64,000 bases of DNA from Candidatus Bathyarchaeia archaeon (GCA_050015395.1 JBEKBM010000011.1:1-64000); one strand, 5' to 3'; positions 1 through 12,346 are shown, numbered from the stretch's first letter. Notes: generated from the sequence alone by a model not told the origin. Numbers and translations: made by a program.

Positions 1-232
1 AGCGTCTGATGGGTGTTTTTTGAGGTGCCAGATTATGCGTGTATCATTTTGTAGTCCTTTGAGTCTGGCGTAGACGAGAACTCTTATGGCTCTGAGGCGC
101 CCGTAACCTGGGTTTCCGCGTCTTTTAGGCTCTTTTGGAACGACTGTTTTGTTGACGATAAGCCTGACGAGTTCACAGGCTTCCATGAAGACAAGAAGAC
201 GCTAACTAGATTTAAAATTATGCACACCCCTC
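1..232 (-). mobile_element. End of an IS element; N-terminus of a DDE-type transposase (ORF 186->1, runs off window), family uncertain (IS5/IS1182/ISH3-like)
   Basis: Manual translation from ATG at 186: MEACELVRLIVNKTVVPKEPKRRGNPGYGRLRAIRVLVYARLKGLQNDTRIIWHLKKHPSDA; the RRGxPGY motif followed by a helical segment resembles transposase N-termini; candidate terminal sequence GAGGGGTGTGCATAA at 232-218. Confidence 0.6.
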
Positions 233-234
233 GG

Positions 235-311
235 CTCCAAATATGATTCAACATAGTTCAACATAGAATTAATGCCCGCACTTTCAACATGAAACAGTGC
301 TCTTTCTGCAT
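235..311 (+). repeat. Partial copy of dispersed non-coding repeat family
   Basis: CAAATATGATTCAACATAG...CATAGAA...CGCACTTT shared with copies at 38681-38820 (-) and 52285-52449 (+). Confidence 0.8.
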
Positions 312-481
312 GTGAAGAGTTTAGTTACGTTGGTTTTAGACAAGATTTTAGAATTTTCCCGAGCTAATTGTTCTTGAAGGCGGCGTGCATGGACAAAACA
401 GGTTTTTGATAAATCTGTAGATTTATCAAAAACTTTCAACTTTCAATTATTAGCATTCCTAAAAAATGAATTGCATTTTGC

Positions 482-1930
482 TCAATTATTAATTAGATCA
501 CGAATTGCCGACTGAACGGATATGCTTTTGTCAATGAAGAACTTATGAACTATAAGTACCGATTCATAGCTTGACAAAGCAAACAGCTTCAAGTTGGGAA
601 ACATGTTTCGGAATGTACTCCCTCCAACTCTGTTCAAATCAAAGCAAAGAATAGCTATTCCGCTGTCGCCCTTTTTTCTTCCGACACGACCAAGTCCCTG
701 TTCGAGTCTTCTTGCCATGTCAACTTTGCCGTTGGATGGTCTTCCTTTTAGCAATTCTATAAATCTGGGTCTAGGAAAAGGAGGATCTATTACTATGAGC
801 AGCTTGAGTTCCTTTATGGTTACGCCTTCCCAAAATACTGTTGATGATGTAAAAAGCACGCCATTAGGCAGATTTAAAAATGCTTTGTATGCTTCAGGTT
901 TCTCGGGCGCACGATTAGGAAGCAAGAAAACACTATTTGAATTCTTATTGATCTCTTTGAAAGCCTTTGCGCATTTAGCGAAGTTATTAAAAAGAACGAG
1001 CGTGCGTGAGTTTGATTCTTTAATTAGTGTTTTCAATAAAACCAATTTATCTGCATCAGAAAGGCTATCTTTCACTGAAATACACAAACGTTGATTGTTT
1101 CTCCATTCAGCAGAGGATTTTACAGGCTCCGCTCTGTCGATAATGTCGCATGAGATACCACAATAGAAGTTGAGTTCTCCATCAGAAAGTTGAGTAGCTG
1201 AAAAAAGCAAAAGATGTTTATTAGGCAGTTTAAAAGTGCGGAGGTCATCAAGTTGCACGAATTTTAGAGTACATACATTGATTTCTTTCCAGATATAGAC
1301 AAAGCAACGCCATGAAGTAGGGTTATCTAGAACTTTTTGCAATTTAGCTTTGAATCCAGGTTCACGTTTCAAGCCATCCAACATGTCTTTTGCAGACGCA
1401 AAAGATATCTGCCGCGCTACGAAATTTCGCTCTGATGGAAGATATCGCGCTAAAAAATTCAGGTAAAATTTGTCGCTTAATGAAAAGTTAAAATTTTTGA
1501 CTGCTTGCCCCTCAAATTCCCAAAATGATTTGAGGTTATGCGCTTCGTCAACTATTACATAATCATATTGTTTATCCGTTTTGAGATATTCGTGCAAATT
1601 CATAATATCAATGTTAGGTAATCCTCCGCAAATGTCTGAGCACGCATTTCTAAAATCCTCCTGAAGGTAATTGCTTGGAACTACTATTGCGATCGTTTGC
1701 CCTGATTCCCGAAATGCTCTGGATAGCAAACAAATGACGTGAGTTTTGCCTGAAGCTGGAGGGGCATCAAATATCCAAACTTTTTTATCTGAGTGCTCCA
1801 TTTTTTTGTATACTCTATCTAACAATTCTCTTTGTTCTGGAAGAAACGAACCATGCTTTTGGAATGGTATCGAAAGCTCCTGCAGATGTGTAATCCACGT
1901 AATTATCGGAGGGATATCAGGATTAGACAT
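482..1930 (-). CDS. DinG/XPD-like SF2 helicase lacking an obvious Fe-S domain (helicase B of the Argonaute operon)
   Basis: Q motif LPEQ, Walker A APPASGKT, motif II DEAH, motif III SAT, motif V FWEGVTI, PPFPRP, motif VI QGLGRVGR; likely start ATG 1930 (MSNPDI) overlapping the Ago stop, rather than 1978. Confidence 0.85.
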   Translation of the reverse strand: MSNPDIPPIITWITHLQELSIPFQKHGSFLPEQRELLDRVYKKMEHSDKKVWIFDAPPASGKTHVICLLSRAFRESGQTIAIVVPSNYLQEDFRNACSDICGGLPNIDIMNLHEYLKTDKQYDYVIVDEAHNLKSFWEFEGQAVKNFNFSLSDKFYLNFLARYLPSERNFVARQISFASAKDMLDGLKREPGFKAKLQKVLDNPTSWRCFVYIWKEINVCTLKFVQLDDLRTFKLPNKHLLLFSATQLSDGELNFYCGISCDIIDRAEPVKSSAEWRNNQRLCISVKDSLSDADKLVLLKTLIKESNSRTLVLFNNFAKCAKAFKEINKNSNSVFLLPNRAPEKPEAYKAFLNLPNGVLFTSSTVFWEGVTIKELKLLIVIDPPFPRPRFIELLKGRPSNGKVDMARRLEQGLGRVGRKKGDSGIAILCFDLNRVGGSTFRNMFPNLKLFALSSYESVLIVHKFFIDKSISVQSAIRDLINN

Positions 1931-4190
1931 AAAATATCCTTTGGTGAACGTCTTGGTTAGAGGGAAGACCATATTCATTTACGTACTTAGCATATTTCTT
2001 CAGATAATATAGTGAGGCAGGTAATCTCGTCCCGTTTCCACTAGTTCCAGCTTCTAGCGACATTGAAAGTACACTATGCATAATTTTGTTTACATCAAAT
2101 ATTCCTTTAGTCGCCAATATCTTAACCCTGATAGGGGTTGGGCAACCTCTATAGTATGTCCCGACTTTCGTTGATCCGGTTGTTAGAATGTAGTATTCAT
2201 CCGATGCTGTCTGCATTATGACCCCTTGGGGAGCATTTTCGTAAGATTCAAGCGGATAAGCGACAACAGTTCTTCGCCTGCTGCTGGGAGAAGCAAGCAG
2301 GGGTTTAAATGTAGAAAATAATCTCAATTCATCTCTTTGCAAGATTTTTATGAAAAAGAATTCAGTTGTGCCCTTAAGCGCTTCTAATATTAGATCTTGA
2401 ATTTGCAGATCAGAAAATGACATGATCGCTATCAATTTGTTATTATTGGCAATTTTAGTCTTCATTTCATTGAGCAGGTTTTGAAAATCGTCATATTCGA
2501 AAGGCTTTGACTGGTAGAGTAATTCTCCTTCTGGCGTCATTAAACTATAAAGAAAGCTTTTTGTTCCATTAAACGGGTTCCTATATGCATAGATTGAAAG
2601 AATATTTGCATCCTCAGGGTTAGCCAGTAGCCAAGGATATCCGCCTAATTTCAAAGTAATCTGCATAACCAATTGTGGAATAGAGTCAGTATTGGCTTTC
2701 TCTGGAGTAAGGTTTTGATGTGCCAAGCCTATATTGCTCACAATTTTTTCTTTGTATTGCCTTATTATCTTTTCATCTTTGGTAATCGTTAAAACAAGGT
2801 TATATCCAGAGAAATCATGTTTTTCAACATCAATATTATTCAACGTGTCAACAGATAAAGTGCAATTGTTTCTATGTTCTATTTCTCTCGAAAGGCTCTC
2901 TACAAAAGATGTGTATTCCTTGTCACAGACCGCTAATATTTTATTCGCTCCAATTGGCTTGGCAAAGACTTCTTTCGCAGTGTATTTTTTGTAGAAGTTT
3001 ATGCCATATGGGGGTAATAGTTCCACTTCTTTGTTGCCAAATTTAATGTTTATTGTAGATGGGGGTTCAACGATTTTTCTAACATCTTTGGGAAATACTG
3101 CAAATTCCAATTTGGCAGGATAGACTTTTTTGAATCTATTACTTAAATTATAATCTATCTTTCTAACAAGATCAAAAATTTTTCTTTGTTGGTCGCCACA
3201 ATGAGGGTGTAAAATATCAAAAACTTGGGACGTTTGGGAATCTGAAATTCTCATACTGATGTCTTTAAAGGTATGTCCGACTACTAAAAATTCCGGAATG
3301 TGAAATTGGGTCTTGATTGTGCCTTCTTTTGTTTCGAGTTTCCATTTAATCAACGGTTGATTCTCGTCTTTTACAGGAATACCTTGTGCTATCTTGTGGT
3401 ATTCACATGGAGAAATATTACCTTCCAAAACCTTGTCTTTAGCTCGTGTTTCCCAGGTTATTTCATCTATTATTATAGATGGAGCCGAATATTCTTTTAC
3501 GTTTGCTGTTCTGTTACGAAAAGCCCAATTAACAAAATTGATGTAGTCTTTTGGTGGATTGTAAAAATCGACTGGTTTCTTTTTTATAGCTTGCCACCAC
3601 TCTGCTAAAATCTTCAATTCATTCAGCAAATTTTTCCAAGATCGAAGCTCAATTTCTCTATTAATCAGCAAATGAGGAATACCAAATGCCACACGAACGC
3701 CACGATAGAATCTTCTCCCATCTTCAACTCCAATTCTTTTGCGAAGAGATTCATCAAAATAGCCTTCGCCTCTTTCCATAATATACGGGGAAAACTCACT
3801 ATATTTGTAGTAATCATCAGACAAGTTACAAAGCGATAAATCAACAATTTTGTTGATGAGCCTTCCATAAGCAATAGGTTCATCAGCAAAACTTACCGAA
3901 TGTGTCTCTTCAAACTTAAGCTTAACCGTAAAATCGCCTAGATTCTCAAGTTGAATTTTGTTCACTATGCCACTTTCAGGGATAGTAGCTTCCAAGACTT
4001 TTATTCTGCCTTCATCAGAAATTACGGCTGTTTCCGTGGAATCCGTGAGTTTTTTAGCGAGTCGCCCCAAAATTTTGTAGAAATGGGCAGGTCTTGCCGG
4101 ACGAGGATCAATTTCTGGGAAGTATGTGTTAATTTTAAGAGGTTCATATACTCTTAGTTCAAACAGATTAGCATTGTAGCTTGTGCTCAT
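1923..4190 (-). CDS. ago: Long prokaryotic Argonaute (N-L1-PAZ-L2-MID-PIWI), predicted catalytically inactive
   Basis: PAZ signature EYHKIAQGIPVKDENQPLI...FHIPEFL; MID end QLVMQITLKLGGYPW; PIWI motifs NAPQGVI, RGCPTP, RLPASLYY; C-terminal RIFYV; catalytic positions read LSIYAY (for GIDV), no RDG, YLKK (for YADK/YAH). Confidence 0.88.
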   Translation of the reverse strand: MSTSYNANLFELRVYEPLKINTYFPEIDPRPARPAHFYKILGRLAKKLTDSTETAVISDEGRIKVLEATIPESGIVNKIQLENLGDFTVKLKFEETHSVSFADEPIAYGRLINKIVDLSLCNLSDDYYKYSEFSPYIMERGEGYFDESLRKRIGVEDGRRFYRGVRVAFGIPHLLINREIELRSWKNLLNELKILAEWWQAIKKKPVDFYNPPKDYINFVNWAFRNRTANVKEYSAPSIIIDEITWETRAKDKVLEGNISPCEYHKIAQGIPVKDENQPLIKWKLETKEGTIKTQFHIPEFLVVGHTFKDISMRISDSQTSQVFDILHPHCGDQQRKIFDLVRKIDYNLSNRFKKVYPAKLEFAVFPKDVRKIVEPPSTINIKFGNKEVELLPPYGINFYKKYTAKEVFAKPIGANKILAVCDKEYTSFVESLSREIEHRNNCTLSVDTLNNIDVEKHDFSGYNLVLTITKDEKIIRQYKEKIVSNIGLAHQNLTPEKANTDSIPQLVMQITLKLGGYPWLLANPEDANILSIYAYRNPFNGTKSFLYSLMTPEGELLYQSKPFEYDDFQNLLNEMKTKIANNNKLIAIMSFSDLQIQDLILEALKGTTEFFFIKILQRDELRLFSTFKPLLASPSSRRRTVVAYPLESYENAPQGVIMQTASDEYYILTTGSTKVGTYYRGCPTPIRVKILATKGIFDVNKIMHSVLSMSLEAGTSGNGTRLPASLYYLKKYAKYVNEYGLPSNQDVHQRIFYV

Positions 4191-5875
4191 TAATTATTTC
4201 CCCTTTGTGCTTTTTCAAATTCACTTAGAAGATCTTCGATGTTGAGCGCTATTATTCTCTTTCTGTATGCCTCTGAAAAATGCGCGCTCTTCTTGTATTT
4301 CTCTAACCGGTTATCTAGAATAATGCAGACCCCTGTGTCATTTTCTTTTCGGATTAGTCTGCCAATTCCTTGTTGGAGTCTGATCAACATCTTACGTCTT
4401 ACAAACGGAAATGAATCACGCGGTTCAAGGTGAACTGGTGGTCTTATGAACGGCAAAGAAAATATTATCTCTAATTTTAAGTCGCTTATGTCAATGCCTT
4501 CCCAAAGTCTTGAAGAGGCAGTAGCCATGATAATATCCGCTTTCTCAACGCATTGCTGTACCTTTTCAGTTTGGTAACTATCATCAATGAAAGTAATTTC
4601 GCGGGTAACTATTTTTTTGAGGGTGTTTTCAGCTTTTCTTTGGTCTCTATAACTCTTGAAGAGCAAAAGTGTTTTGCCTTTACCTCTTTTTAGAATTTCA
4701 GCAGCTATCTCTGCACTTTTCTCAATTGAATCGCTGCTGTCTTTTGGGAAATCTCGTGTTTCCAAGATTTGTAAACCATTAAACCAATTTTCCACTTGAG
4801 GCGGCACACTCTTGGGTATTATCGAAATTGAATCATCAGTATATTTTCTGTGTGTGCAGTAACTGGCATGAGTTATAATGTCACCAGGCGTTGCGCTGGC
4901 GAAAACTACTTTTGATTTTCCAAAGAGTTTCTTGACAACGTTGTTCTGAAAACTATCCGATTTCCTAGCTATCAAGGCGGCTTCTTGTGGATCATTTTGA
5001 TTATAGTAGTCTTTTTGGATGTAGAAAGTATTGTACGATGTATTCTTGCAGCAATTTGCAAAATACAACATATCAAAAACTATGTCTCTATCGGCTTCAT
5101 CTATGTTTTTAAGCTGGTTTTGAAGCTGATCGAAACCTTCTATTTCAGCAATCCCTTTAATGACATCATCAGGCATTCGCCTGTTTAATTGATCAGGCGG
5201 TATAGCGCGAAGAGCGTCATCAAAATAATCTAAGAAGAATCCTGTAAAATCTGCTATAGCATCGTTTTTCAATTCGTGCCTTTTGAAAAGATCATTAATT
5301 TGATAATAGGCAAGTCTATTCTGGAACTTGTCATCAAGAGCGTTTTCAAATCCGTGGGAGTCATCAATAATTATTAAGTCAAAGCCGCGCTCTGTTGGCG
5401 TGGAAAGAAACTTATGGAAATTTGTTAGGATAAAAGGATATTCCTCGAACTCCTTTGTTATGTTAAGAACCGTGCATTCAGGTCTCTCTTTGCTGCATTC
5501 ACTTTTTTGTTTCTTATTGCAAGTTCCGTAGTCCGCCTTGTTACCTGTTAGTAAGCAATCATAATGCTCGATGCCCTTAACAACGTGTGGCTTAGTTTTA
5601 ACTTTAAAATTGGGCAGATATTTTCTTTCTAGCTGATCGATAATCAGGTTTGTTGCCACAATTATACATACTCTATGTCCGTGATTAGCCGCAACTATTG
5701 CTGCAGGCAAATAAACATAAGTTTTTCCGGTTCCCGTAGGAAGACAGGTTGCAACGTCATTCCCTTTTGCTAACCCATTCACAAGTTCTTTGATTGAATC
5801 ACGTTGATATGGTCTGGGGTTTACAAGGAATGTACTTAGGCACTCATCAAGAGATAACGTTAAACCTGTGGTCAT
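4190..5875 (-). CDS. DinG/XPD/Rad3-family helicase with four-Cys putative Fe-S segment (helicase A of the Argonaute operon)
   Basis: PRPYQ Q motif, PTGTGKT, KGIEHYDC...C...C...C, motif II variant DDSH, SAT, LWEGIDI, LPF, QGIGRLIR, ILDNR; stop overlaps Ago start (TAATG). Confidence 0.9.
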   Translation of the reverse strand: MTTGLTLSLDECLSTFLVNPRPYQRDSIKELVNGLAKGNDVATCLPTGTGKTYVYLPAAIVAANHGHRVCIIVATNLIIDQLERKYLPNFKVKTKPHVVKGIEHYDCLLTGNKADYGTCNKKQKSECSKERPECTVLNITKEFEEYPFILTNFHKFLSTPTERGFDLIIIDDSHGFENALDDKFQNRLAYYQINDLFKRHELKNDAIADFTGFFLDYFDDALRAIPPDQLNRRMPDDVIKGIAEIEGFDQLQNQLKNIDEADRDIVFDMLYFANCCKNTSYNTFYIQKDYYNQNDPQEAALIARKSDSFQNNVVKKLFGKSKVVFASATPGDIITHASYCTHRKYTDDSISIIPKSVPPQVENWFNGLQILETRDFPKDSSDSIEKSAEIAAEILKRGKGKTLLLFKSYRDQRKAENTLKKIVTREITFIDDSYQTEKVQQCVEKADIIMATASSRLWEGIDISDLKLEIIFSLPFIRPPVHLEPRDSFPFVRRKMLIRLQQGIGRLIRKENDTGVCIILDNRLEKYKKSAHFSEAYRKRIIALNIEDLLSEFEKAQRGNN

Positions 5876-6050
5876 CTAGGTTTCACTCATTTCCTCTTTT
5901 CAATTGCCGATTACTGCAGGTATGTTCGCTCTGTGCTAATAAGGTTTAATACTGTTTACAACAAGGAGGCGGACTCGATTCAAGCTCTTGGATAAGTTAA
6001 ATACCTGATTTTTGGAGCTGATAAGAATGTGAGTCACAATACAATCATAA

Positions 6051-6066
6051 GTAAGAATATTCTTAC
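6051..6066. promoter_or_regulatory. Perfect 16-bp palindrome, probable autoregulatory operator of the AbrB-type antitoxin
   Basis: GTAAGAATATTCTTAC just upstream of the AbrB start at 6084. Confidence 0.6.
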
Positions 6067-6083
6067 CATTAAACGGCGAAAGC

Positions 6084-6344
6084 ATGATGGAAGCATCCAC
6101 AACTAAAGTTTCCTCTAAAGGGCAAGTGGTTATCCCAGCGAACGTTCGCAAAGCAGCTAACCTAAAGAAAGGCGAGAAAATCCTAGCAATAGCTATTGAT
6201 GACATGGTTGTTCTTAAAAAAATAATTGATAAATCCTTTGAAGAAACCATTAAGCCAGTATGGGCAAAAGTTAAGCAGATGGGTCTTTCGGAGAAAGACA
6301 TAAACACCCTCATCGACCAAGCAAAAGCCAAAAGCAGTTCTTGA
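6084..6344 (+). CDS. AbrB/MazE/SpoVT-family DNA-binding protein (antitoxin)
   Basis: TKVSSKGQVVIPANVRKAANLKKGE signature. Confidence 0.92.
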   Translation: MMEASTTKVSSKGQVVIPANVRKAANLKKGEKILAIAIDDMVVLKKIIDKSFEETIKPVWAKVKQMGLSEKDINTLIDQAKAKSSS

Positions 6345-6375
6345 CACAAACGTTTGGATTTCAAGCCTTATCGGT
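6325..6375 (+). pseudogene. Truncated PIN-domain (VapC-like) toxin remnant
   Basis: Frame overlapping the antitoxin stop reads KPKAVLDTNVWISSLIG (PIN N-terminal motif), with no start codon nearby and no further PIN similarity. Confidence 0.7.
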
Positions 6376-6572
6376 TTCAAGCTTGCAAGAAGAGCACGTG
6401 CACTTTATTTTTTTTTCGCTGCTCCTCCACAACTGACGCCGCGGTTTTATCTTCAAGGTCTATAAACATCGTTTCCAGCTGAAGTGCTTTTGAGCTAACA
6501 ATCCCAACTATTTGAGTAAGCTGGCTCTCGTATTCTCTGTTTACATCGTCTGCCCCACCGCAATTGTTTTAT

Positions 6573-6780
6573 AATCACAATCATAACAGAAATCACATGG
6601 GTTACAAGACATGCGCTATCTGTGGACGAAAAGTCTACAAAGGAGAGGGAATGTACTACGGAGGTCGCCTAATACATCGAACCTGCAGGGGTATAGCCAA
6701 AATTCAGCGGTACAAGCTTAATGAGAAGTAAGTTCAAGGGAGAGTTATCGTGGAAAATCACAATCATAACAAAAATCACA
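6573..6780 (+). repeat. 25-bp direct repeat (6573-6597 and 6756-6780) flanking a small ORF
   Basis: AATCACAATCATAACAGAAATCACA vs AATCACAATCATAACAAAAATCACA (24/25 identical). Confidence 0.9.
6597..6731 (+). CDS. 44-aa zinc-finger microprotein (C-x2-C-x17-H-x2-C)
   Basis: Manual translation MGYKTCAICGRKVYKGEGMYYGGRLIHRTCRGIAKIQRYKLNEK; absent from ORF track. Confidence 0.7.
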   Translation: MGYKTCAICGRKVYKGEGMYYGGRLIHRTCRGIAKIQRYKLNEK

Positions 6781-7240
6781 AAATAAATCCTTTCTCACCG
6801 CAACAACCAACACAACGGCATTTTTTTCTATTTCAGATTATTAAAAAGCGCAAATAGTTTTTTAATTATATGAAACGCTATGCAAACCATGCTTGCCGAG
6901 TCTGCTTTCGGTAGGTCCGAGCCTTTATTGGGGATTCTTTGACTCCTTGACTTTTAGAGACGCATAATGACGAATATAGACGAAACCTGCAAACGCTTCA
7001 AGCCCCAAACCTAAAAAGCAACACAAAACAACCAAAACAAACTCTTCTCTTTTGACAATTTAGCTACTTGCTACAGTTTCTGAATATTTTGCTTCGTCTT
7101 ATTGCTTCTGCTATGGGAAGCCTATGGCGTTTAGGGCTATTGTGGATCCGACAAACAGCAGCATCAGTTAGCGCCAATATGACAGCAAACAACAGTTTTG
7201 GTGAAAAGTCTTTTTAGCTTCATCTGCACACTATAGCATC

Positions 7241-7306
7241 ATGCCATCTCTAAAAAAGAAGAATGCTACGAAAAAAGCAAAGCATGAAGCAAAAACGGGC
7301 AAATAA
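7241..7306 (+). CDS. Possible 21-aa lysine-rich peptide
   Basis: MPSLKKKNATKKAKHEAKTGK; BRE/TATA-like GAAAAGTCTTTTTA about 25-30 bp upstream. Confidence 0.35.
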   Translation: MPSLKKKNATKKAKHEAKTGK

Positions 7307-7375
7307 GACGGGCTGCCGCTTTTGCAATATAATTATATAATTCTTTAAGCTTATGTTACTTTTGAGGAAACTGCT

Positions 7376-7747
7376 TTGTCAGAGTTTGTTTGGAATAAGC
7401 CTGTCGTGTGCATTTTTAAAGAGCGCGACGTTAACCCTGAAATAGACCCTTTTGTAGTTGTTAAGGCAAAAAAAATAATGCTTGCCCGTTCCGATAACTC
7501 TCAAGTAGTTGGCAGCCTTGTAGATTTCTTCACTTTGATGGGTGATGCTGACTATCTTGTGTCGCCTGAAGGTGCAGTTGACCATTATGTAATGTGCTGG
7601 TTTGACGACACTGAGCCAGATATGACTAAAGACCTGAGGCGTTTAAGAGGAGTTACCCTTAAGGGAAAAGTTGCTTGCGCACTTAACGCAGCCGGCAAAA
7701 GGACGTATAATGCAGCTTTCAAGGCTGAACATGCCAAACTGAAATAA
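7376..7747 (+). CDS. Hypothetical protein
   Basis: 123-aa ORF with protein-like composition and AT-rich TATA-like upstream region. Confidence 0.75.
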   Translation: MSEFVWNKPVVCIFKERDVNPEIDPFVVVKAKKIMLARSDNSQVVGSLVDFFTLMGDADYLVSPEGAVDHYVMCWFDDTEPDMTKDLRRLRGVTLKGKVACALNAAGKRTYNAAFKAEHAKLK

Positions 7748-7928
7748 CCCGATTTCGATTTTCTACATTTTCAGGCTAAAGATAGTTTACTCAAAAGAAA
7801 CCCGTAATAGCAGCTCTAATGGTAAATCGAACCGCTGTAACCCGCGGAGTTAATGGTGAATTTATCATTTTTCTTAAACTTAATTTTAAATATAACTGCA
7901 TAAACTCTATTGGATAAGGTCATAGACC

Positions 7929-8336
7929 ATGGTTGAGCAAAAGTTACATGCAATTCTAATTACTGGTAGAACAATCGATCAAGGCGTTGGAAAAGAGATG
8001 GGGAAAGGCTCAAAAGAGTACTTTGACAGCTCCGCCCTCTGCTTTATTGATGAAGCGGACATGAAAAAACTGGGCATAAAAAGCCGAGCAAAAGCAAACG
8101 TTAAGGTTACTTCAAAGTACGGTTCAGTCATCGTTAAAGCAGCGAAGAACCCCTACGGCTCCAATCCTGGCTTGGTTTTCATCCCCTGCGGTTTATGGGC
8201 AAACGCCGTCTGCGGAGATGAAACCTTCGGCATGGGTATGCCTCTTTTTAAGGGTTTTCAAGTTGAAGTTGAACCTGCCCCAAACCAAGCCATCTTAACG
8301 CTTGATGAGCTTTTGAAAGAGGAGTATGGAAGGTAA
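7929..8336 (+). CDS. fwdD: Formylmethanofuran dehydrogenase subunit D
   Basis: LITGRTIDQG, VFIPCGLWAN, GMPLFKG; first gene of fwd operon. Confidence 0.93.
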   Translation: MVEQKLHAILITGRTIDQGVGKEMGKGSKEYFDSSALCFIDEADMKKLGIKSRAKANVKVTSKYGSVIVKAAKNPYGSNPGLVFIPCGLWANAVCGDETFGMGMPLFKGFQVEVEPAPNQAILTLDELLKEEYGR

Positions 8337-8341
8337 TTGTT

Positions 8342-9838
8342 ATGACAGAAATAATAAAATCAGTTGTTTGTCCAATATGCGGCTGCTTATGTGATGACCT
8401 AGAAGTAACAGTGGAAAATAACGAGATTGTTAAAATGAAGAATGGCTGTTCTGTCTGTGAAGCTAAAATGGTTCACGGGTACAAGAGTGATGAGAGAATT
8501 TTAAAGCCGCTGATAAGAAAGGACGGTAAGTTAGTCCCTGTATCGATGGATGAAGCAGTACACAAGGCAGCCCAAATTCTCACGGACGCAAAGTATCCAC
8601 TGCTGTTCGGCTGGAGCAGTTCAACCTGCGAAGCGCAGCGAATTGGTGTTGAATTAGCTGAAGAATTAGGCTCAGCACTTGATAACTGCTGCAGCGTTTG
8701 CCACGGCCCGTCAGTTATGGCAACACAAGAAATCGGTATCCCCTCATGCACTCTTGGGCAAATCAGACATCGTGCAGACCTAATAATTTACTGGGCATGC
8801 AACCCATGGACTTCACACCCAAGACACCTTGAAAGATACACCAGCTTCACTGAGGGACGCTTTGAGGGTAGCGAATGGAAAAGTTATCTGGAAAAATTAA
8901 AAGGTACCCAAAGTAAGAAAAAAGTGGAAGCAGCTTCACGGCGAATCATAGGCGGATATGAACCGACGCCTCCTCCGCAAGCGTACACTGTTGATGCACC
9001 ACCACAGACAATGCAGAAGGCGGGGCGTAAACTGATTGTTGTTGACGTAAGAAAAACCATGACTGCCGAGGCAGCTGATTACTTTATTCAAGTTCAACCA
9101 AACAAGGACTATGAAATACTTGATGCGCTCAGATGTTTAGTGGTTGATCAAGAACTGGACGTTGACAAAGTTGGCGGTGTTCCAGTCGAATACTTAAAAG
9201 AAGTAGCTGACGAAATGGTGAACTGCGAGTTTGGGGTCATCTTCTTCGGTCTCGGCTTAACTCAAAGCGCTGGCAGATTCAGAAACGTCGAAATAGCAAT
9301 TGCGTTAACACGGGACCTTAATAGAAAAACCAAATTTGTAATCTCGCCTATGCGAGGGCACTTCAACGTTACAGGCGCAAACACGGTTTTCGCTTGGCAA
9401 ACAGGTTACCCATATGCAATTGACTTCTCACAAGGGTACCCGCAATACAACCCGGGGGAATTCACAACCATCGACCTTTTGAGACGCGGTGACAACGACG
9501 CAACACTAGTTATTTCATCAGATCCAGGGGCGCACTTTCCTAAGCCAGCCATGCAAAATATGATGAAGCACCCGTTAATCACCATTAACCCAGACATGAA
9601 CGCTATCTCAAGGCTTGGAGACGTGGTGTTTCCAACGCAGTGGTGCGGAATAGAATGTGAGGGCTCAGCTTACCGCATGGATCACGTGCCGATAATGCTG
9701 CGCAAAGTCGTTGAGCCACCACCAGGAATCCTAAACGACGAGCAGCTCCTAAAGAGAATCCTGGATGAAGTCCGAGTAATTAAAGCACAAAAGGCAGAGA
9801 AAGAAGAATCACCCGAGAAAAAAGAGGCGGCTTGCTAA
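8342..9838 (+). CDS. fwdB: Formylmethanofuran dehydrogenase subunit B (Cys form)
   Basis: CPICGCLCDD Fe-S motif, SVCHGP, CTLGQIRHRAD, MRGHFNVTG, YRMDHVP. Confidence 0.96.
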   Translation: MTEIIKSVVCPICGCLCDDLEVTVENNEIVKMKNGCSVCEAKMVHGYKSDERILKPLIRKDGKLVPVSMDEAVHKAAQILTDAKYPLLFGWSSSTCEAQRIGVELAEELGSALDNCCSVCHGPSVMATQEIGIPSCTLGQIRHRADLIIYWACNPWTSHPRHLERYTSFTEGRFEGSEWKSYLEKLKGTQSKKKVEAASRRIIGGYEPTPPPQAYTVDAPPQTMQKAGRKLIVVDVRKTMTAEAADYFIQVQPNKDYEILDALRCLVVDQELDVDKVGGVPVEYLKEVADEMVNCEFGVIFFGLGLTQSAGRFRNVEIAIALTRDLNRKTKFVISPMRGHFNVTGANTVFAWQTGYPYAIDFSQGYPQYNPGEFTTIDLLRRGDNDATLVISSDPGAHFPKPAMQNMMKHPLITINPDMNAISRLGDVVFPTQWCGIECEGSAYRMDHVPIMLRKVVEPPPGILNDEQLLKRILDEVRVIKAQKAEKEESPEKKEAAC

Positions 9839-11530
9839 ATGACCGAGTTACTCATAAAAAACGGCTTCGTCTTTGACCCCATAAACGGGATTAACGGCGA
9901 AAAAATGGACATTGCAATCAAGAACGGCAAAATCGTTGCAAAAGTCACGCGGAGGGCTCAAGTGATTGACGCTACTGGCTTAACCGTTATGCCTGGCGGT
10001 GTTGATATTCATACTCACGTTGCCGGCGGAGAAGTTAATACTGGCAGAATTGTGCGTCCAGAAGATCACGTTAAAGATGTGGAACACAAAACAGCCTTAA
10101 CGCGTTCAGGCACTGGTTATTCAATTCCCTCTACTTTCACGACGGGTTACCGTTATTCACGTATGGGTTACACAACAATCATGAATCCATCTATGGTCCC
10201 ACTAGAAGCAAAGCACACGCATGAAGAACTAAACGATATTCCGCTCGTTGACAAAGCCACGTACCCGCTGCTGGGCGACTGGTGGTTTGTACTAGAAAAC
10301 CTAAGCAAAGGCAACATTGAAGAATGCGCAAAACACGTCGCTTGGATGCTTGATATAACTAAAGGCTACGCCATAAAAATCGTTAACCCCGGCGGACTGG
10401 AATCTTGGGGTTTCGGGCACAATGTCCACAGCATAGATGACCAAGTTCCAAACTTCTGCATTACTCCACGCGAAATAATGAGGGGCTTAGCTAAAGTTAA
10501 CAAACTGCTAAATCTTCCCCACACGATTCACCTTCACACTAACAATCTGGGCTTGCCAGGCAACTACACCACAACCCTCGACACCATGAGGGCGCTTGAA
10601 GACTTATACACAGACGGCAAACCAGTAGCACACATAACCCACTTGCAATTCAGCAGTTACGGCGGCGACGGCTGGAGCCACTTTAAATCGGCAGCAGAAG
10701 AAATCTCAAGCTACATCAACGCTCACAGCCACATGACCTTCGACATGGGACAAATCATATTCACAGACACCACAACCATGACAGCTGACGGCCCCTTCGA
10801 GTTCACGCTCTACGAGTTAAGCGGTCACAAATGGGTTAACAGTGACATTGAAACTGAGACAAGCGGCGGAATCATACCCTTCCAATACAAGAAAAACAAC
10901 GCCGTCAACGCAACCCAGTGGTCAATCGGCTTAGAGTTAGCCTTACTAATTAAGGACCCTTGGAAAATGTTCCTGACCACAGACCACCCCAACGCTGGGC
11001 CATTCTTTGCTTACCCAAGAATTCTCGCTTGGCTAATGAGCAAGGATGCACGTACGGCAACGTTGAATCATTGTCACAAGAAAGCTCAGAAAAAGAGCCT
11101 GCTACCTTCCATTGACAGGGAATTGTCGCTCTACGAGTTAGCAATTATGACTCGTGCGGGACAAGCTAAAGCTTTAGGGCTCAAAAACAAGGGGCAGTTA
11201 GGTGTTGGCGCTGACGCAGACGTTGCAATATACAACATTAATCCTGAAACAACCGACATAGCCAAAGAGTTCAAGACGGTGCGCAGAGCCTTCAAGCATG
11301 CGGCTTACACGATTAAGGACGGCAAAATCGTGGTTAAAGACGGCAAAGTCGTAGGCGAAGCTAGCGGCAGAACCATGTGGCTTGATGTCCAGACAAAAGA
11401 GCCATGCATAATTGACGAAGAGATGAAACGCAAGTTCAAGCAATACTGGACCGTTGAATACGACAATTACCCAGTGTTTGACCATTACTTGAAGGTTCCA
11501 GAAAAATTAACCATAAAGGCACGTGTCTAA
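9839..11530 (+). CDS. fwdA: Formylmethanofuran dehydrogenase subunit A (amidohydrolase)
   Basis: DIHTH, KIVNPGG, HLHTNNLG, TTMTADGP, TTDHPNAGPF. Confidence 0.97.
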   Translation: MTELLIKNGFVFDPINGINGEKMDIAIKNGKIVAKVTRRAQVIDATGLTVMPGGVDIHTHVAGGEVNTGRIVRPEDHVKDVEHKTALTRSGTGYSIPSTFTTGYRYSRMGYTTIMNPSMVPLEAKHTHEELNDIPLVDKATYPLLGDWWFVLENLSKGNIEECAKHVAWMLDITKGYAIKIVNPGGLESWGFGHNVHSIDDQVPNFCITPREIMRGLAKVNKLLNLPHTIHLHTNNLGLPGNYTTTLDTMRALEDLYTDGKPVAHITHLQFSSYGGDGWSHFKSAAEEISSYINAHSHMTFDMGQIIFTDTTTMTADGPFEFTLYELSGHKWVNSDIETETSGGIIPFQYKKNNAVNATQWSIGLELALLIKDPWKMFLTTDHPNAGPFFAYPRILAWLMSKDARTATLNHCHKKAQKKSLLPSIDRELSLYELAIMTRAGQAKALGLKNKGQLGVGADADVAIYNINPETTDIAKEFKTVRRAFKHAAYTIKDGKIVVKDGKVVGEASGRTMWLDVQTKEPCIIDEEMKRKFKQYWTVEYDNYPVFDHYLKVPEKLTIKARV

Positions 11531-12346
11531 ATGATAACCTTAACCCCGCTAAGAAAATTTGACGTTCCAGTACAAGCTGCATGCATTAGCCCAGACGTCT
11601 TCAAGGGCAAAGACACTGCTGAAATAGCAAACCTACCAGTAACCGAAGGAAACCGCCAACTAAAACTGTGCAACCTCTTTGAAATAAAAGAAGACAACGC
11701 TGAAACCCCAACCATAACCATCAACGGCGACGTAGGCAAAGTCAAACGGATTGGTCAATGCATGAAAACTGGCGAAATAGTCATCAACGGCGACTGTGGC
11801 ATGCACACAGGTGAAAAAATGGCAGGCGGCAAAATCACAGTAAACGGCAACGTAGGCGGATGGACAGGCAACGAAATGAAAGCTGGCACAATAGAAATTC
11901 ATGGAGACGCAGGCGACTACTTGGCTTCACCATACCGCGGAAGCAGCAGCACAGGCATGAAAGGCGGCTTAATAACTGTTGACGGCAAAGTCGGAAGCGA
12001 CGTAGGCTGTTACCTGCATGGAGGAGTACTCAAAATCGGCGGCGGCGCAGGCAGATTCCTCGGCTACCACATGAGCGACGGCGCAATCCTTGTTGACAAG
12101 GAAACTGACACTCGTGCTGGCGCATGCATGACAGGCGGCAAAATAGTCATAACAGGCACAATCGAAGAAGTAATGCCCACATTCACCATTGACAGCGTAA
12201 AAGCCAAAGTCAAAATCGACGACACACAAAGCGTCGCAGGACCATTCTACGTGTTTCTCGGCGACTTGGCAGAGCACGGCAAAGGCAAAATCTTCGTCTC
12301 AAAAGCCAACAATCCGCAGCTAAAAACATACGAAAAATACCTATAA
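11531..12346 (+). CDS. fwdC: Formylmethanofuran dehydrogenase subunit C
   Basis: Repeated GxxMxGGxIxVxG beta-helix units, FLGDLAEHGKG. Confidence 0.96.
   Translation: MITLTPLRKFDVPVQAACISPDVFKGKDTAEIANLPVTEGNRQLKLCNLFEIKEDNAETPTITINGDVGKVKRIGQCMKTGEIVINGDCGMHTGEKMAGGKITVNGNVGGWTGNEMKAGTIEIHGDAGDYLASPYRGSSSTGMKGGLITVDGKVGSDVGCYLHGGVLKIGGGAGRFLGYHMSDGAILVDKETDTRAGACMTGGKIVITGTIEEVMPTFTIDSVKAKVKIDDTQSVAGPFYVFLGDLAEHGKGKIFVSKANNPQLKTYEKYL

What the first reader, a model, noticed from the sequence alone, without database searches (positions are those of the whole stretch)
482..5875. Helicase-Argonaute-helicase operon: inactive long pAgo coupled to two different DinG/XPD helicases, with no nuclease
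Seen: three minus-strand genes with overlapping stop/start codons (TAATG at 4190; ATGTCTAA at 1930-1923). The middle 755-aa protein has PAZ, MID and PIWI motifs but lacks the acidic tetrad. Both neighbours carry SF2 DinG/XPD motifs and neither shows a recognisable nuclease domain. The locus is bounded by an IS end and a decayed AbrB-PIN module. Known: inactive pAgos usually work with an effector (SIR2, TIR, nuclease or membrane proteins); DdmE loads the helicase-nuclease DdmD; pPIWI-RE sits with one DinG plus an REase; type IV-A CRISPR recruits CasDinG. Inference: a guide-directed archaeal defence or silencing system in which Ago recognises a target and loads a helicase heterodimer for unwinding, transcriptional interference or plasmid clearance. 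I know of no description of this architecture, but cannot search.
Basis: partly seen in the sequence, partly recalled or inferred. Interest (0 to 1): 0.93.

Follow-up and report, generated by a model that had tools for sequence, protein, structure and literature searches.

The report
Argonaute flanked by two XPD/DinG helicases
An archaeon from peat carries a tightly packed three-gene cassette, an Argonaute that can no longer cut flanked by two DNA-helicase genes and no nuclease, which looks like a rare and so far undescribed kind of guide-directed defence system.

Summary
Three overlapping minus-strand genes encode helA (561 aa), a 755-aa Argonaute and helB (482-498 aa).

- **Argonaute:** the model (pLDDT 89) is a complete long Argonaute. 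The catalytic positions read Y534 and L730, and D594 is unconserved, so it should not slice.
- **Helicases:** both are XPD/DinG-family paralogs with conserved ATPase motifs. helA has four invariant cysteines (Fe-S type); helB lacks that insert. No nuclease domain was found in any of the three.
- **Conservation:** the same gene order occurs in 25 of 26 related loci; the 26th contig ends 157 nt upstream of its Argonaute gene. No fourth gene or flank is conserved.
- **Distribution:** Argonaute and helA were found in the same 2 of 401 genomes of the phylum. The cassette sits beside restriction-modification genes in 4 loci.

Best reading (about 0.5): a guide-directed defence cassette in which the inactive Argonaute finds the target and the two helicases act as effectors. 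The nearest analogues are DdmDE, pPIWI-RE and type IV-A CRISPR with CasDinG, but it fails the membership tests of all three. Eight literature searches found no description.

Binding, guide type and function are untested. An apparent helA-Argonaute fusion was a frameshift. I rate it a new variant of a known kind.

The parts
4190..5875 (-). helA: 561-aa XPD/DinG-family SF2 helicase with a Cys-rich (Fe-S type) insert
   Evidence: ORF. Pfam Helicase_C_2 1.5e-18, ResIII 3.4e-14, DEAD 5.3e-9. PADLOC typeIV_DinG PDLC01439 1.2e-40 over residues 11-545. The family profile hits T. acidophilum XPD at 1e-20. In 17 homologs G48, G50, K51 (Walker A), D171-D172-S173-H174, Q501-R506, R509 and C107, C119, C127, C134 are invariant.
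1923..4190 (-). Catalytically inactive long Argonaute (N-L1-PAZ-L2-MID-PIWI), 755 aa
   Evidence: ORF. AF2 pLDDT 89.3. Foldseek top hits MILI 2.4e-39 and hAgo2 1.7e-37. VIA: HrAgo1 Z 26.8 (rmsd 3.9, 661 aligned), EfPiwi 26.4, RsAgo 24.5. Tetrad positions Y534 / about D594 / L730. K480 and Q492 are invariant and K514 is nearly invariant in the MID region.
482..1930 (-). helB: XPD/DinG-family SF2 helicase, a paralog of helA without the Cys-rich insert. 482 aa from the ATG at 1930; the ORF is open back to 1978 (498 aa).
   Evidence: ORF. Pfam Helicase_C_2 6.1e-11. PADLOC typeIV_DinG 1.5e-20. AF2 pLDDT 84.2, with residues 1-20 below 50. Foldseek: XPD 3.1e-17, DinG 5.2e-16, Hna, CasDinG 5.4e-15. 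hhalign of helA against helB profiles: 99.9%, E 9e-33, 388 columns, with a gap opposite helA residues 98-140. G77, K78, T79, H80, E145, H147, N148, Q427, G428, G430, R431 and R434 are invariant in 17 homologs.
402..433 (-). Hairpin with a 14-bp stem, 49 nt downstream of the helB stop; a possible end of the operon
   Evidence: Consensus scan. This is a pattern match only: the scan found 5 terminator-like sites against 6.2 expected from shuffles, and archaeal termination is not modelled.

Best explanation
The cassette is a self-contained, horizontally mobile, guide-directed nucleic-acid interference (defence) system of archaea.

Proposed mechanism. The Argonaute cannot slice. It binds a short guide through its MID and PAZ pockets and recognises complementary invader nucleic acid. 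Target binding then engages the two ATP-driven XPD/DinG-type helicases as the effectors. Both should be 5'-3' motors by family, so they could load on the two strands exposed at the D- or R-loop and move apart. Unwinding would strip proteins, block replication or transcription of the plasmid or virus, or expose single strands to host nucleases, because the cassette has no nuclease of its own.

Shown here: the gene order and its conservation; loss of the catalytic residues; retention of the ATPase motifs; absence of a nuclease domain; patchy distribution and co-occurrence.

Inferred: guide binding, recruitment of the helicases, their direction of travel, and the outcome for the invader.
For: - Gene order helA-Ago-helB was seen in 25 of 26 related loci (L001, L004, L006-L029). 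The 26th, L016, ends 157 nt upstream of its Argonaute gene. Genes overlap or lie no more than 18 nt apart in the loci I read off.
- Divergence of the three genes co-varies over 21 loci with all three full length: Spearman 0.90 (Ago-helA), 0.90 (Ago-helB), 0.96 (helA-helB). Kin are not independent.
- The Argonaute profile and the helA profile each hit the same 2 of 401 genomes of the phylum, G000 and G318.
- There is no conserved fourth gene (ORFs of 70 aa or more). The 450-nt flanks match only among close relatives.
- The tetrad is lost in all 34 aligned members at D1 and at H/D4. The nearest outgroup proteins, P0070, P0077 and P0152, keep acidic or His residues there.
- ATPase motifs are invariant in both helicase families.
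- Context fits defence. Type I R-M genes flank L013 and L023, and Res plus methylase genes flank L012, with the Res homolog also in L014. In the window an IS-like repeat and an orphan MazE antitoxin flank the cassette. Cassette GC is 37.6%, below all 102 windows of 5.4 kb in the rest of the window (38.6-46.5%).
- There is precedent for the logic. DdmE, an inactive pAgo, recruits DdmD, whose helicase is DinG/XPD-like (bioRxiv 10.1101/2024.05.10.593530, passages). [quoted passage not shown]
Against: - There is no experimental or expression evidence.
- Nothing shows that the three proteins touch.
- Adjacency to R-M genes holds for only 4 of 26 loci. Other neighbours look like housekeeping genes, for example fwd genes in the window and a family-B DNA polymerase in L010.
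- The family was not found on viral contigs or plasmids, so mobility is inferred only from patchiness, GC and flanking repeats.
- A helicase-only effector would be unusual for a pAgo system. DdmDE needs DdmD's nuclease activity.
- The mapping of the second catalytic Asp is uncertain, and D594 is present in the window's protein.
Confidence: 0.5

Rival explanations
1. The helicases act upstream of the Argonaute rather than as effectors. They open double-stranded DNA or R-loops so that the Argonaute can reach a single-stranded target, or they help produce or load guides. Interference would then come from stable Argonaute binding (a steric block) or from host factors.
For: The pAgo DdmE cannot open perfectly paired dsDNA by itself (passages of 10.1101/2024.05.10.593530). 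The HrAgo1 operon carries a helicase that its authors suggest may help make guides (PMC11217426, passages). The conserved triad and the intact ATPase motifs fit this reading as well as the main one.
Against: Two different dedicated helicases, one with and one without the Cys-rich insert, seem more than target access needs. An inactive Argonaute without an effector gives only stoichiometric binding. No nuclease for making guides is encoded in the cassette.
Confidence: 0.2
2. It is an abortive-infection type system. Target-bound Argonaute releases the helicases to act indiscriminately, by genome-wide unwinding, collisions with replication forks or ATP drain, so that the infected cell stops growing.
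For: Most characterised inactive pAgo systems are described as working through effectors that trigger abortive infection (abstract starts of PMC11442185 and PMC13535254 in the listings). Foldseek places helB near Hna (5.5e-16), which its paper describes as an abortive-infection system (abstract start of PMC13381803).
Against: No toxic domain (nuclease, NADase or membrane protein) is present. A helicase alone is not a known suicide effector.
Confidence: 0.1
3. It is not a defence system but a genome-maintenance or regulatory module, for example R-loop resolution, repair at specific sequences or transcriptional silencing of resident elements. It would use XPD-like helicases as in nucleotide-excision repair.
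For: The nearest solved relatives of both helicases by sequence are archaeal XPD repair helicases. Burroughs et al. raise transcription-related roles for prokaryotic PIWI proteins (PMC3702460, passages). In the window the neighbours on one side are metabolic genes.
Against: The family was found in only 2 of 401 genomes of the phylum, and in 1 of 10 other genomes of the same genus. That does not fit a housekeeping role. The low GC, the flanking repeat and the R-M neighbours fit a mobile defence island better.
Confidence: 0.1

Closest known systems
DdmDE (Vibrio cholerae plasmid-defence module)
   Same: A catalytically inactive pAgo acts together with an SF2 helicase whose core resembles DinG/XPD, with INS and Arch inserts. 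DdmD's INS lacks an Fe-S cluster, as helB appears to (10.1101/2024.05.10.593530, passages).
   Different: DdmD carries a C-terminal PD-(D/E)xK nuclease that is essential for plasmid elimination. Here there are two separate helicases of about 500-560 aa and no nuclease. The Argonaute model matches DdmE only at Z 8.3, against Z 20-27 for other Argonautes. No Ddm model was among the PADLOC hits at E up to 0.1.
pPIWI-RE three-gene system (Burroughs, Iyer, Aravind 2013)
   Same: It is a three-gene operon with overlapping termini that joins a PIWI-module protein to a DinG-clade helicase with a Cys-rich insert. Its distribution is patchy, and a model of helicase recruitment at hybrid duplexes was proposed (PMC3702460, abstract and passages).
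   Different: pPIWI-RE operons are bacterial, in the strict order REase-DinG-pPIWI-RE, with one helicase and an REase nuclease. The figure legend read draws a conserved globular region 'X' before the MID and pPIWI-RE domains, not N and PAZ. Here the cassette is archaeal, in the order helicase-Ago-helicase, has no REase, and encodes a full long Argonaute with a PAZ domain. The PADLOC PprPIWI model matches only residues 5-524 at 1e-16, and PprDinG matches helA only at 0.0015.
Type IV-A CRISPR-Cas with CasDinG
   Same: A guide-directed recognition module is coupled to a DinG-family helicase in place of a nuclease. helA's best PADLOC hit is a type IV-A-associated DinG model over its full length (1.2e-40). 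CasDinG is among helB's structural neighbours.
   Different: No Csf proteins and no CRISPR-like repeats are present. NCBIfam cas_csf4 scores 46 bits against a cut-off of 400. The recognition module is an Argonaute.
Asgard HrAgo1 operon
   Same: It is an archaeal Argonaute with eukaryote-like features, flanked by a helicase gene. HrAgo1 is among the best full-length structural matches (Z 26.8, rmsd 3.9, 661 aligned).
   Different: HrAgo1 clusters with eAgos. Its neighbours are an RNase III and a helicase compared with Dicer's domains (PMC11217426, passages). It is described there as an RNA-guided RNA silencer, which I take from the title and abstract. Here the tetrad is lost, there is no RNase III, and the two helicases are XPD/DinG type. 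The family profile does not detect HrAgo1 in the PDB even at E up to 10.
Long-B pAgo effector systems (BPAN and relatives)
   Same: An inactive long pAgo is encoded with an effector in one operon (abstract start of PMC13535254 in the listing).
   Different: The effectors named there are nucleases; that SIR2 and membrane proteins also serve as effectors is my recollection. Whether this family belongs to the long-B clade could not be tested, because I had no named reference sequences.

Membership tests
Argonaute/PIWI superfamily, long form | N-L1-PAZ-L2-MID-PIWI architecture and fold | tested here: met
   AF2 model pLDDT 89.3. Foldseek hits to full-length eAgo and PIWI proteins at 1e-39 to 1e-35. 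VIA Z 20-27 spanning residues 2-755.
Argonaute/PIWI superfamily, long form | Pfam Piwi (PF02171) and PAZ (PF02170) above gathering score | tested here: inconclusive
   Piwi scores 26.5 bits against a cut-off of 28.9, and PAZ 17.9 against 28.8. Many of the 43 homologs carry precomputed PF02171.
Slicing-competent Argonaute | DEDX catalytic tetrad in the PIWI domain | tested here: not met
   D1 is Y534 (Y26/L4/K2/H2 of 34). Position 4 is L730 (L32/M2). D2 is about D594, with D in 19 of 34 and an uncertain column. No conserved Glu finger was identified.
Long-B pAgo clade | Phylogenetic placement within long-B | tested here: inconclusive
   In a 60-row quick tree the family is a long-branched clade (support 100) sister to three metagenomic proteins (support 96). 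The tree held no named long-A or long-B references.
DdmDE | Helicase partner fused to a PD-(D/E)xK nuclease | tested here: not met
   No nuclease family appears in Pfam, PADLOC or NCBIfam for either helicase. The helB model's Foldseek matches are XPD/DinG-type helicases. helA aligns to a 575-position DinG model over positions 7-564.
DdmDE | DdmE-clade Argonaute | tested here: inconclusive
   VIA gives Z 8.3 to DdmE (9ezy_B), against Z 20-27 for other Argonautes. No sequence test against DdmE was possible.
pPIWI-RE system | Operon order REase - DinG - pPIWI-RE, with an REase-fold gene first | tested here: not met
   The order here is helicase-Ago-helicase in 25 of 26 loci, with no REase hit. 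The defining feature is taken from PMC3702460.
pPIWI-RE system | PIWI-RE type module (conserved R and E; region X instead of N and PAZ) | tested here: inconclusive
   PADLOC PprPIWI matches at 1e-16 but only over residues 5-524. The generic pAgo model is stronger, at 2.6e-28. The model has a PAZ domain that matches PIWI PAZ domains. The R and E signature itself was not checked.
Type IV-A CRISPR-Cas | Csf effector proteins and a CRISPR array beside CasDinG (Csf4) | tested here: not met
   No repeat array was found in window 1-9000. cas_csf4 TIGR03117 scores 46.2 bits (helA) and 14.4 bits (helB) against a cut-off of 400.
XPD/DinG (Rad3) family SF2 helicases | Helicase_C_2 domain, Walker A, DEAH-type box and motif VI | tested here: met
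   Helicase_C_2 scores 67.8 bits (helA) and 43.1 bits (helB) against a cut-off of 25.3. The motifs are invariant in 17 + 17 homologs. The nearest solved sequences are archaeal XPD. helB's fold matches XPD and DinG.
XPD/DinG (Rad3) family SF2 helicases | Four-cysteine Fe-S insert after the Walker A strand | tested here: met
   This holds for helA only: C107, C119, C127 and C134 are invariant in 17 sequences. helB has a gap opposite helA residues 98-140 and no such invariant Cys set, so it is not met for helB. Metal binding itself is not testable here.

The most novel reading that the evidence does not exclude
This is a nuclease-free Argonaute interference system. A non-Asgard archaeal Argonaute, whose PAZ and PIWI domains are by sequence closest to the eukaryotic PIWI clade, silences or evicts invading DNA. 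On guide-directed target binding it loads two paralogous XPD-type motors, one with and one without an Fe-S insert. This would be the Argonaute counterpart of type IV-A CRISPR with CasDinG. It would also be a prokaryotic precedent for Argonaute-directed, non-slicing silencing at the DNA or transcription level.
Probability: 0.25. Interest if true: 0.85.

Novelty: new variant of a known kind. Interest (0 to 1): 0.66.

Why it matters
Inactive prokaryotic Argonautes are understood through their partners: NADases, nucleases, membrane proteins, or the helicase-nuclease DdmD. A conserved cassette whose only partners are two helicases would add an effector class that has no destructive domain.

It poses a clear question: how does unwinding alone stop an invader? 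It also gives an Argonaute parallel to CasDinG-based silencing.

The Argonaute itself is of evolutionary interest. Outside its own small clade, its profile finds metazoan PIWI proteins before any characterised prokaryotic Argonaute, although the limited tree does not nest it among eukaryotes.

The system is compact (5.4 kb) and should be easy to test in a heterologous host.

Tried and rejected
- **Complex prediction.** Argonaute residues 1-400 with full-length helA gave "no answer" (score 0.00). This is no evidence either way. Only this one pairing was tried. Ago MID-PIWI with helA, Ago with helB, and helA with helB remain untested.
- **Apparent natural fusion.** L015 has a 1341-aa helA-Argonaute ORF. 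I rejected it as a fusion. The last ~30 residues of helA are readable in another frame after a 1-nt shift. L016 is 100% identical to L015 over 5009 nt, so it is not independent.
- **Expression.** No RNA holder was listed among the 24 runs that hold the stretch. All four runs laid were DNA contigs.
- **Single-sequence search of the PDB.** phmmer with the Argonaute found nothing significant (best E 0.39). Only the family profile did.
- **NCBIfam.** No family was found for the Argonaute.
- **Viral contigs and plasmids.** No relatives were found.
- **Genome collection scan.** Only one locus was found.
- **Small-subunit rRNA.** None was found in the genome. The archaeal domain was shown instead by ribosomal protein L21e being present and Sigma70_r2 not being found, with the control genomes splitting as expected.
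- **Tree.** It has no named long-A or long-B references and many long branches. It cannot place the family relative to those clades or show a special link to eukaryotes.
- **Protein Atlas.** It returned only generic Piwi clusters.
- **Closed or unused tools.** I did not open any supplementary files. The orthogroup tables of Ryazansky et al. 2018 might list such helicases.
Full report
**The observation**

The window holds three minus-strand ORFs at 4190..5875 (561 aa, here helA), 1923..4190 (755 aa) and 482..1978 (498 aa, here helB). helA's TAA and the next ATG share base 4190, reading TAATG. An ATG at 1930 overlaps the TAA of the middle gene, reading ATGTCTAA. The helB ORF is open back to 1978. 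However, residues 1-20 of that longer form are modelled with pLDDT below 50, and most homolog alignments start near residue 28. So 1930 is the likelier start. A 14-bp hairpin lies 49 nt behind the helB stop. It is a pattern match only: the scan found fewer such sites than in shuffled sequence.

**The middle protein is an Argonaute**

By sequence alone this is borderline:
- Pfam Piwi 4.8e-6, 26.5 bits against a cut-off of 28.9; PAZ 0.003.
- PADLOC pAgo PDLC02436 2.6e-28.
- No NCBIfam family.
- Nothing by phmmer against the PDB.

A family alignment of 34 of the 43 homologs found (37-92% identity) gave an AlphaFold2 model with pLDDT 89.3 and pTM 0.85. Foldseek matched it over its full length to MILI (2.4e-39), hAgo2, Siwi and the Asgard HrAgo1.

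VIA-align, run against 48,161 representative chains, listed only Argonautes at the top:

| Structure | Z |
|---|---|
| AfAgo (MID-PIWI) | 26.9 |
| HrAgo1 (rmsd 3.9, 661 aligned) | 26.8 |
| EfPiwi | 26.4 |
| Drosophila Piwi | 26.2 |
| AtAgo10 | 25.3 |
| CpAgo | 24.7 |
| RsAgo | 24.5 |
| MjAgo | 21.2 |
| PfAgo | 20.3 |
| SiAgo | 20.3 |
| TtAgo | 15.5 |
| DdmE | 8.3 |

So it is a complete long Argonaute. Structure does not tie it to one clade.

**The catalytic residues are lost**

I mapped the catalytic positions through the HMMER alignment of the family profile to EfPiwi and a MAFFT alignment with named PIWI proteins.
- The first Asp is Y534 (Y26, L4, K2, H2 among 34 members).
- The His/Asp position is L730 (L32, M2).
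- The second Asp lies near D594. That column is uncertain and holds Asp in only 19 of 34 members.
- I found no conserved Glu finger.

The family therefore should not slice. The nearest proteins outside the family (P0070, P0077, P0152) keep Asp/Glu and Asp/His at the first and fourth positions.

K480 and Q492 are invariant and K514 is nearly invariant in the MID region. Their spacing matches the 5'-phosphate pocket of eukaryotic Argonautes as I recall it. That is recall, not a test. The family also carries a conserved insert in the PIWI domain (R681-G682-C683-P684, invariant) that the compared PIWI proteins lack. Its N-terminal half, L1 and L2, is more conserved than MID-PIWI.

**An unexpected sequence affinity**

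The family profile was searched against 1.84 billion representatives. It found 91 proteins at E up to 0.001.
- About eight of these are full-length family clusters.
- A few are metagenomic proteins.
- I looked up 20 of the 91 by name. Ten carry eukaryotic names, nine of them animal (eight labelled PIWI or Ago3, plus an unnamed protein of the myxozoan Henneguya) and one from the protist Pharyngomonas. One is a Bacteroidota MAG protein.

Against all PDB sequences, 17 of 17 hits at E below 0.01 are PIWI-clade proteins. AGO-clade MID domains come at E 0.16-1.5 and one cyanobacterial pAgo at 0.7. HrAgo1, TtAgo, PfAgo, RsAgo and DdmE are not detected at E up to 10.

A quick 60-row tree shows the family as one clade (support 100) on a long branch of 2.19. 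It is sister to P0070, P0077 and P0152 (support 96). It is not nested among the eukaryotic sequences, and it lies on the side of the other archaeal pAgos with unstarred support of 86. The tree lacks named long-A and long-B references and has many long branches. So the PIWI-like affinity stays an unexplained observation, not a phylogenetic claim.

**The two neighbours are XPD/DinG helicases**

| Test | helA | helB |
|---|---|---|
| Pfam Helicase_C_2, bits (cut-off 25.3) | 67.8 | 43.1 |
| PADLOC typeIV_DinG PDLC01439 | 1.2e-40, residues 11-545 | 1.5e-20 |
| Family profile against T. acidophilum XPD | 1e-20 | 2e-6 |
| Invariant ATPase motifs in 17 homologs | G48, G50, K51; D171-D172-S173-H174; Q501-R506, R509 | G77-K78-T79-H80; E145, H147, N148; Q427, G428, G430, R431, R434 |
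| Invariant four-Cys set | C107, C119, C127, C134 | none; gap opposite helA residues 98-140 |

The helB model (pLDDT 84.2) matches XPD (3.1e-17), DinG, Hna and CasDinG. The two are paralogs: hhalign gives 99.9%, E 9e-33 over 388 columns. helA's four invariant cysteines match the Fe-S-type insert typical of the family.

Scores against curated equivalogs (YoaA, DinG, Csf4) are far below their cut-offs. The two proteins therefore belong to the family but not to a named orthologous group. No nuclease family was hit in any of the three proteins in Pfam, PADLOC or NCBIfam. Neither helicase has room for an extra domain.

**Conservation of the cassette**

Scans returned one genome locus (L001, whose title names a Bathyarchaeota MAG), one locus in a genome of the same genus (G318) and 25 metagenome loci, one of them identical to the window.
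- Of the 26 loci that are not the window, 25 show helA, the Argonaute and helB in that order. In L008 and L009 the outer genes are cut by contig ends.
- L016 ends 157 nt upstream of its Argonaute gene.
- In L029 the Argonaute is broken, and in L018 helB is broken.
- Genes overlap or lie within 18 nt of each other in the loci I read off.
- Identity to the window's three proteins co-varies over the 21 loci with all three full length: Spearman 0.90, 0.90 and 0.96. Kin are not independent.
- No other ORF family of 70 aa or more is shared across divergent loci. The 450-nt flanks match only among close relatives.
- In 401 genomes of the phylum, the Argonaute profile (E up to 1e-10) and the helA profile (E up to 1e-15) each hit the same two genomes, G000 and G318. 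Within the genus that is 1 of 10 other genomes.

**Context**

The host genome is archaeal. Ribosomal protein L21e is present and Sigma70_r2 was not found, and the control genomes split as expected. No AmoA was found, although that search rang in no control genome either. One homolog is named Nitrososphaera sp.. The stretch is held by 24 peat or wetland DNA runs.

Around the cassette in the window:
- In four runs the cassette lies on a single contig piece of about 5.8 kb (window 265/297 to 6122/6125) with no differences.
- Window 1-300 has about ten-fold depth and many alternative junctions at 233-315. Window 1-262 recurs at or near contig ends in the genome. So an IS-like repeat bounds the left side.
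- On the right lies a MazE/AbrB antitoxin ORF (6084..6344, PF04014 9.2e-10), followed by formylmethanofuran dehydrogenase genes.
- Cassette GC is 37.6%, below all 102 windows of 5.4 kb in the rest of the window.

Elsewhere the cassette sits next to type I R-M genes (L013; L023 by cluster membership) and a Res-like helicase, with a methylase gene as well in L012 (L012; L014 by cluster membership). It was not found on viral contigs or plasmids. No CRISPR-like repeats are nearby.

**Mechanism**

The best-supported reading is a guide-directed defence cassette. The inactive Argonaute is the sensor, and the two helicases are what acts on the target.

The precedent is DdmDE. There an inactive pAgo with a 5'-phosphorylated DNA guide recruits DdmD to the displaced strand. 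DdmD's helicase is DinG/XPD-like with an INS insert lacking Fe-S, and it moves 5'-3' (passages of 10.1101/2024.05.10.593530). That system needs DdmD's nuclease, which is absent here.

[quoted passage not shown] Two 5'-3' motors could leave the target site on opposite strands. This is inference.

Rivals are laid out with odds in their own section:
- The helicases serve target access or guide supply.
- The cassette is an abortive-infection device.
- The cassette has a genome-maintenance role.

**Novelty**

Eight full-text searches found no description of an Argonaute flanked by two DinG/XPD helicases. I also read passages of these papers and found none:
- Ryazansky et al. 2018 (PMC6299218).
- Burroughs et al. 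2013 (PMC3702460).
- Bastiaanssen et al. 2024 (PMC11217426).
- A DinG review (PMC11981726).
- A 2026 survey of archaeal immunity (PMC12988326).

Ryazansky et al. note in general terms that pAgo operons often encode helicases. Subscription journals and supplementary tables were not seen.

The principle of an inactive pAgo working with an XPD/DinG-type helicase is known. I therefore rate this a new variant of a known kind. It differs by the pair of paralogous helicases, the lack of any nuclease, the archaeal host and the PIWI-like Argonaute.

Noticed in passing
window 233-262: A roughly 30-nt sequence at the inner edge of the IS-like repeat recurs, alone, at about 30 places across many contigs of the same genome, at 90-100% identity. 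It may be a terminal repeat of a MITE or IS family, or a preferred insertion site.
   Followed up: partly
window 1-262: An IS-like multi-copy repeat. It has about 10x depth in 4 of 4 runs, and copies lie at or near contig ends in C42, C40 and C18. The ORF at 1..186 (-) has only a faint DUF772 transposase hit (E 0.027). It probably explains why the contig ends here.
   Followed up: partly
window 6084-6344 (+): An 86-aa MazE/AbrB-type antitoxin ORF (PF04014 9.2e-10) with no intact toxin gene behind it; only a 42-aa ORF follows at 6354..6482. Contig depth is about twice that of the neighbouring bins in bin 6001-6300 in two or three of the four runs laid, so related copies may exist.
   Followed up: partly
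window 6573-6597 and 6756-6780: A 25-nt direct repeat (96% identical, 183 nt apart). It lies in or beside two small ORFs that begin with His/Asn-rich stretches. One of them (6564..6731) has a Cys pattern like a zinc ribbon.
   Followed up: no
window 7929-12346 (+): A formylmethanofuran dehydrogenase gene cluster: a Molydop_binding subunit, FwdB-like (TIGR03129 7e-168), FwdA (TIGR03121 2.6e-244) and a GXGXG subunit. Further on lie MoeA, MobA, SelD and a selenium-associated LysR-type regulator.
   Followed up: partly
L004 2871-5528 (+) (G318): In the congeneric genome a third helicase with DEAD, ResIII and Helicase_C_2 domains (885 aa) lies about 1.3 kb beyond helB on the opposite strand. It is not conserved in other loci.
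   Followed up: no
L015 about 2260-2460; L016; L029 4486-6730; L018 6687-8022: Damaged copies of the cassette. There is a 1-nt frameshift near the helA C-terminus that mimics a helA-Argonaute fusion (L015 and L016 are the same sequence). The Argonaute is split into three ORFs in L029, and helB into two in L018. These could be assembly errors or decaying cassettes.
   Followed up: partly
proteins P0070, P0077, P0152 (metagenomic, 773-784 aa): These are the nearest relatives outside the family. They keep Asp/Glu and Asp/His at the first and fourth catalytic positions. Their gene neighbourhoods could not be fetched, so it is unknown whether they have helicase partners.
   Followed up: partly
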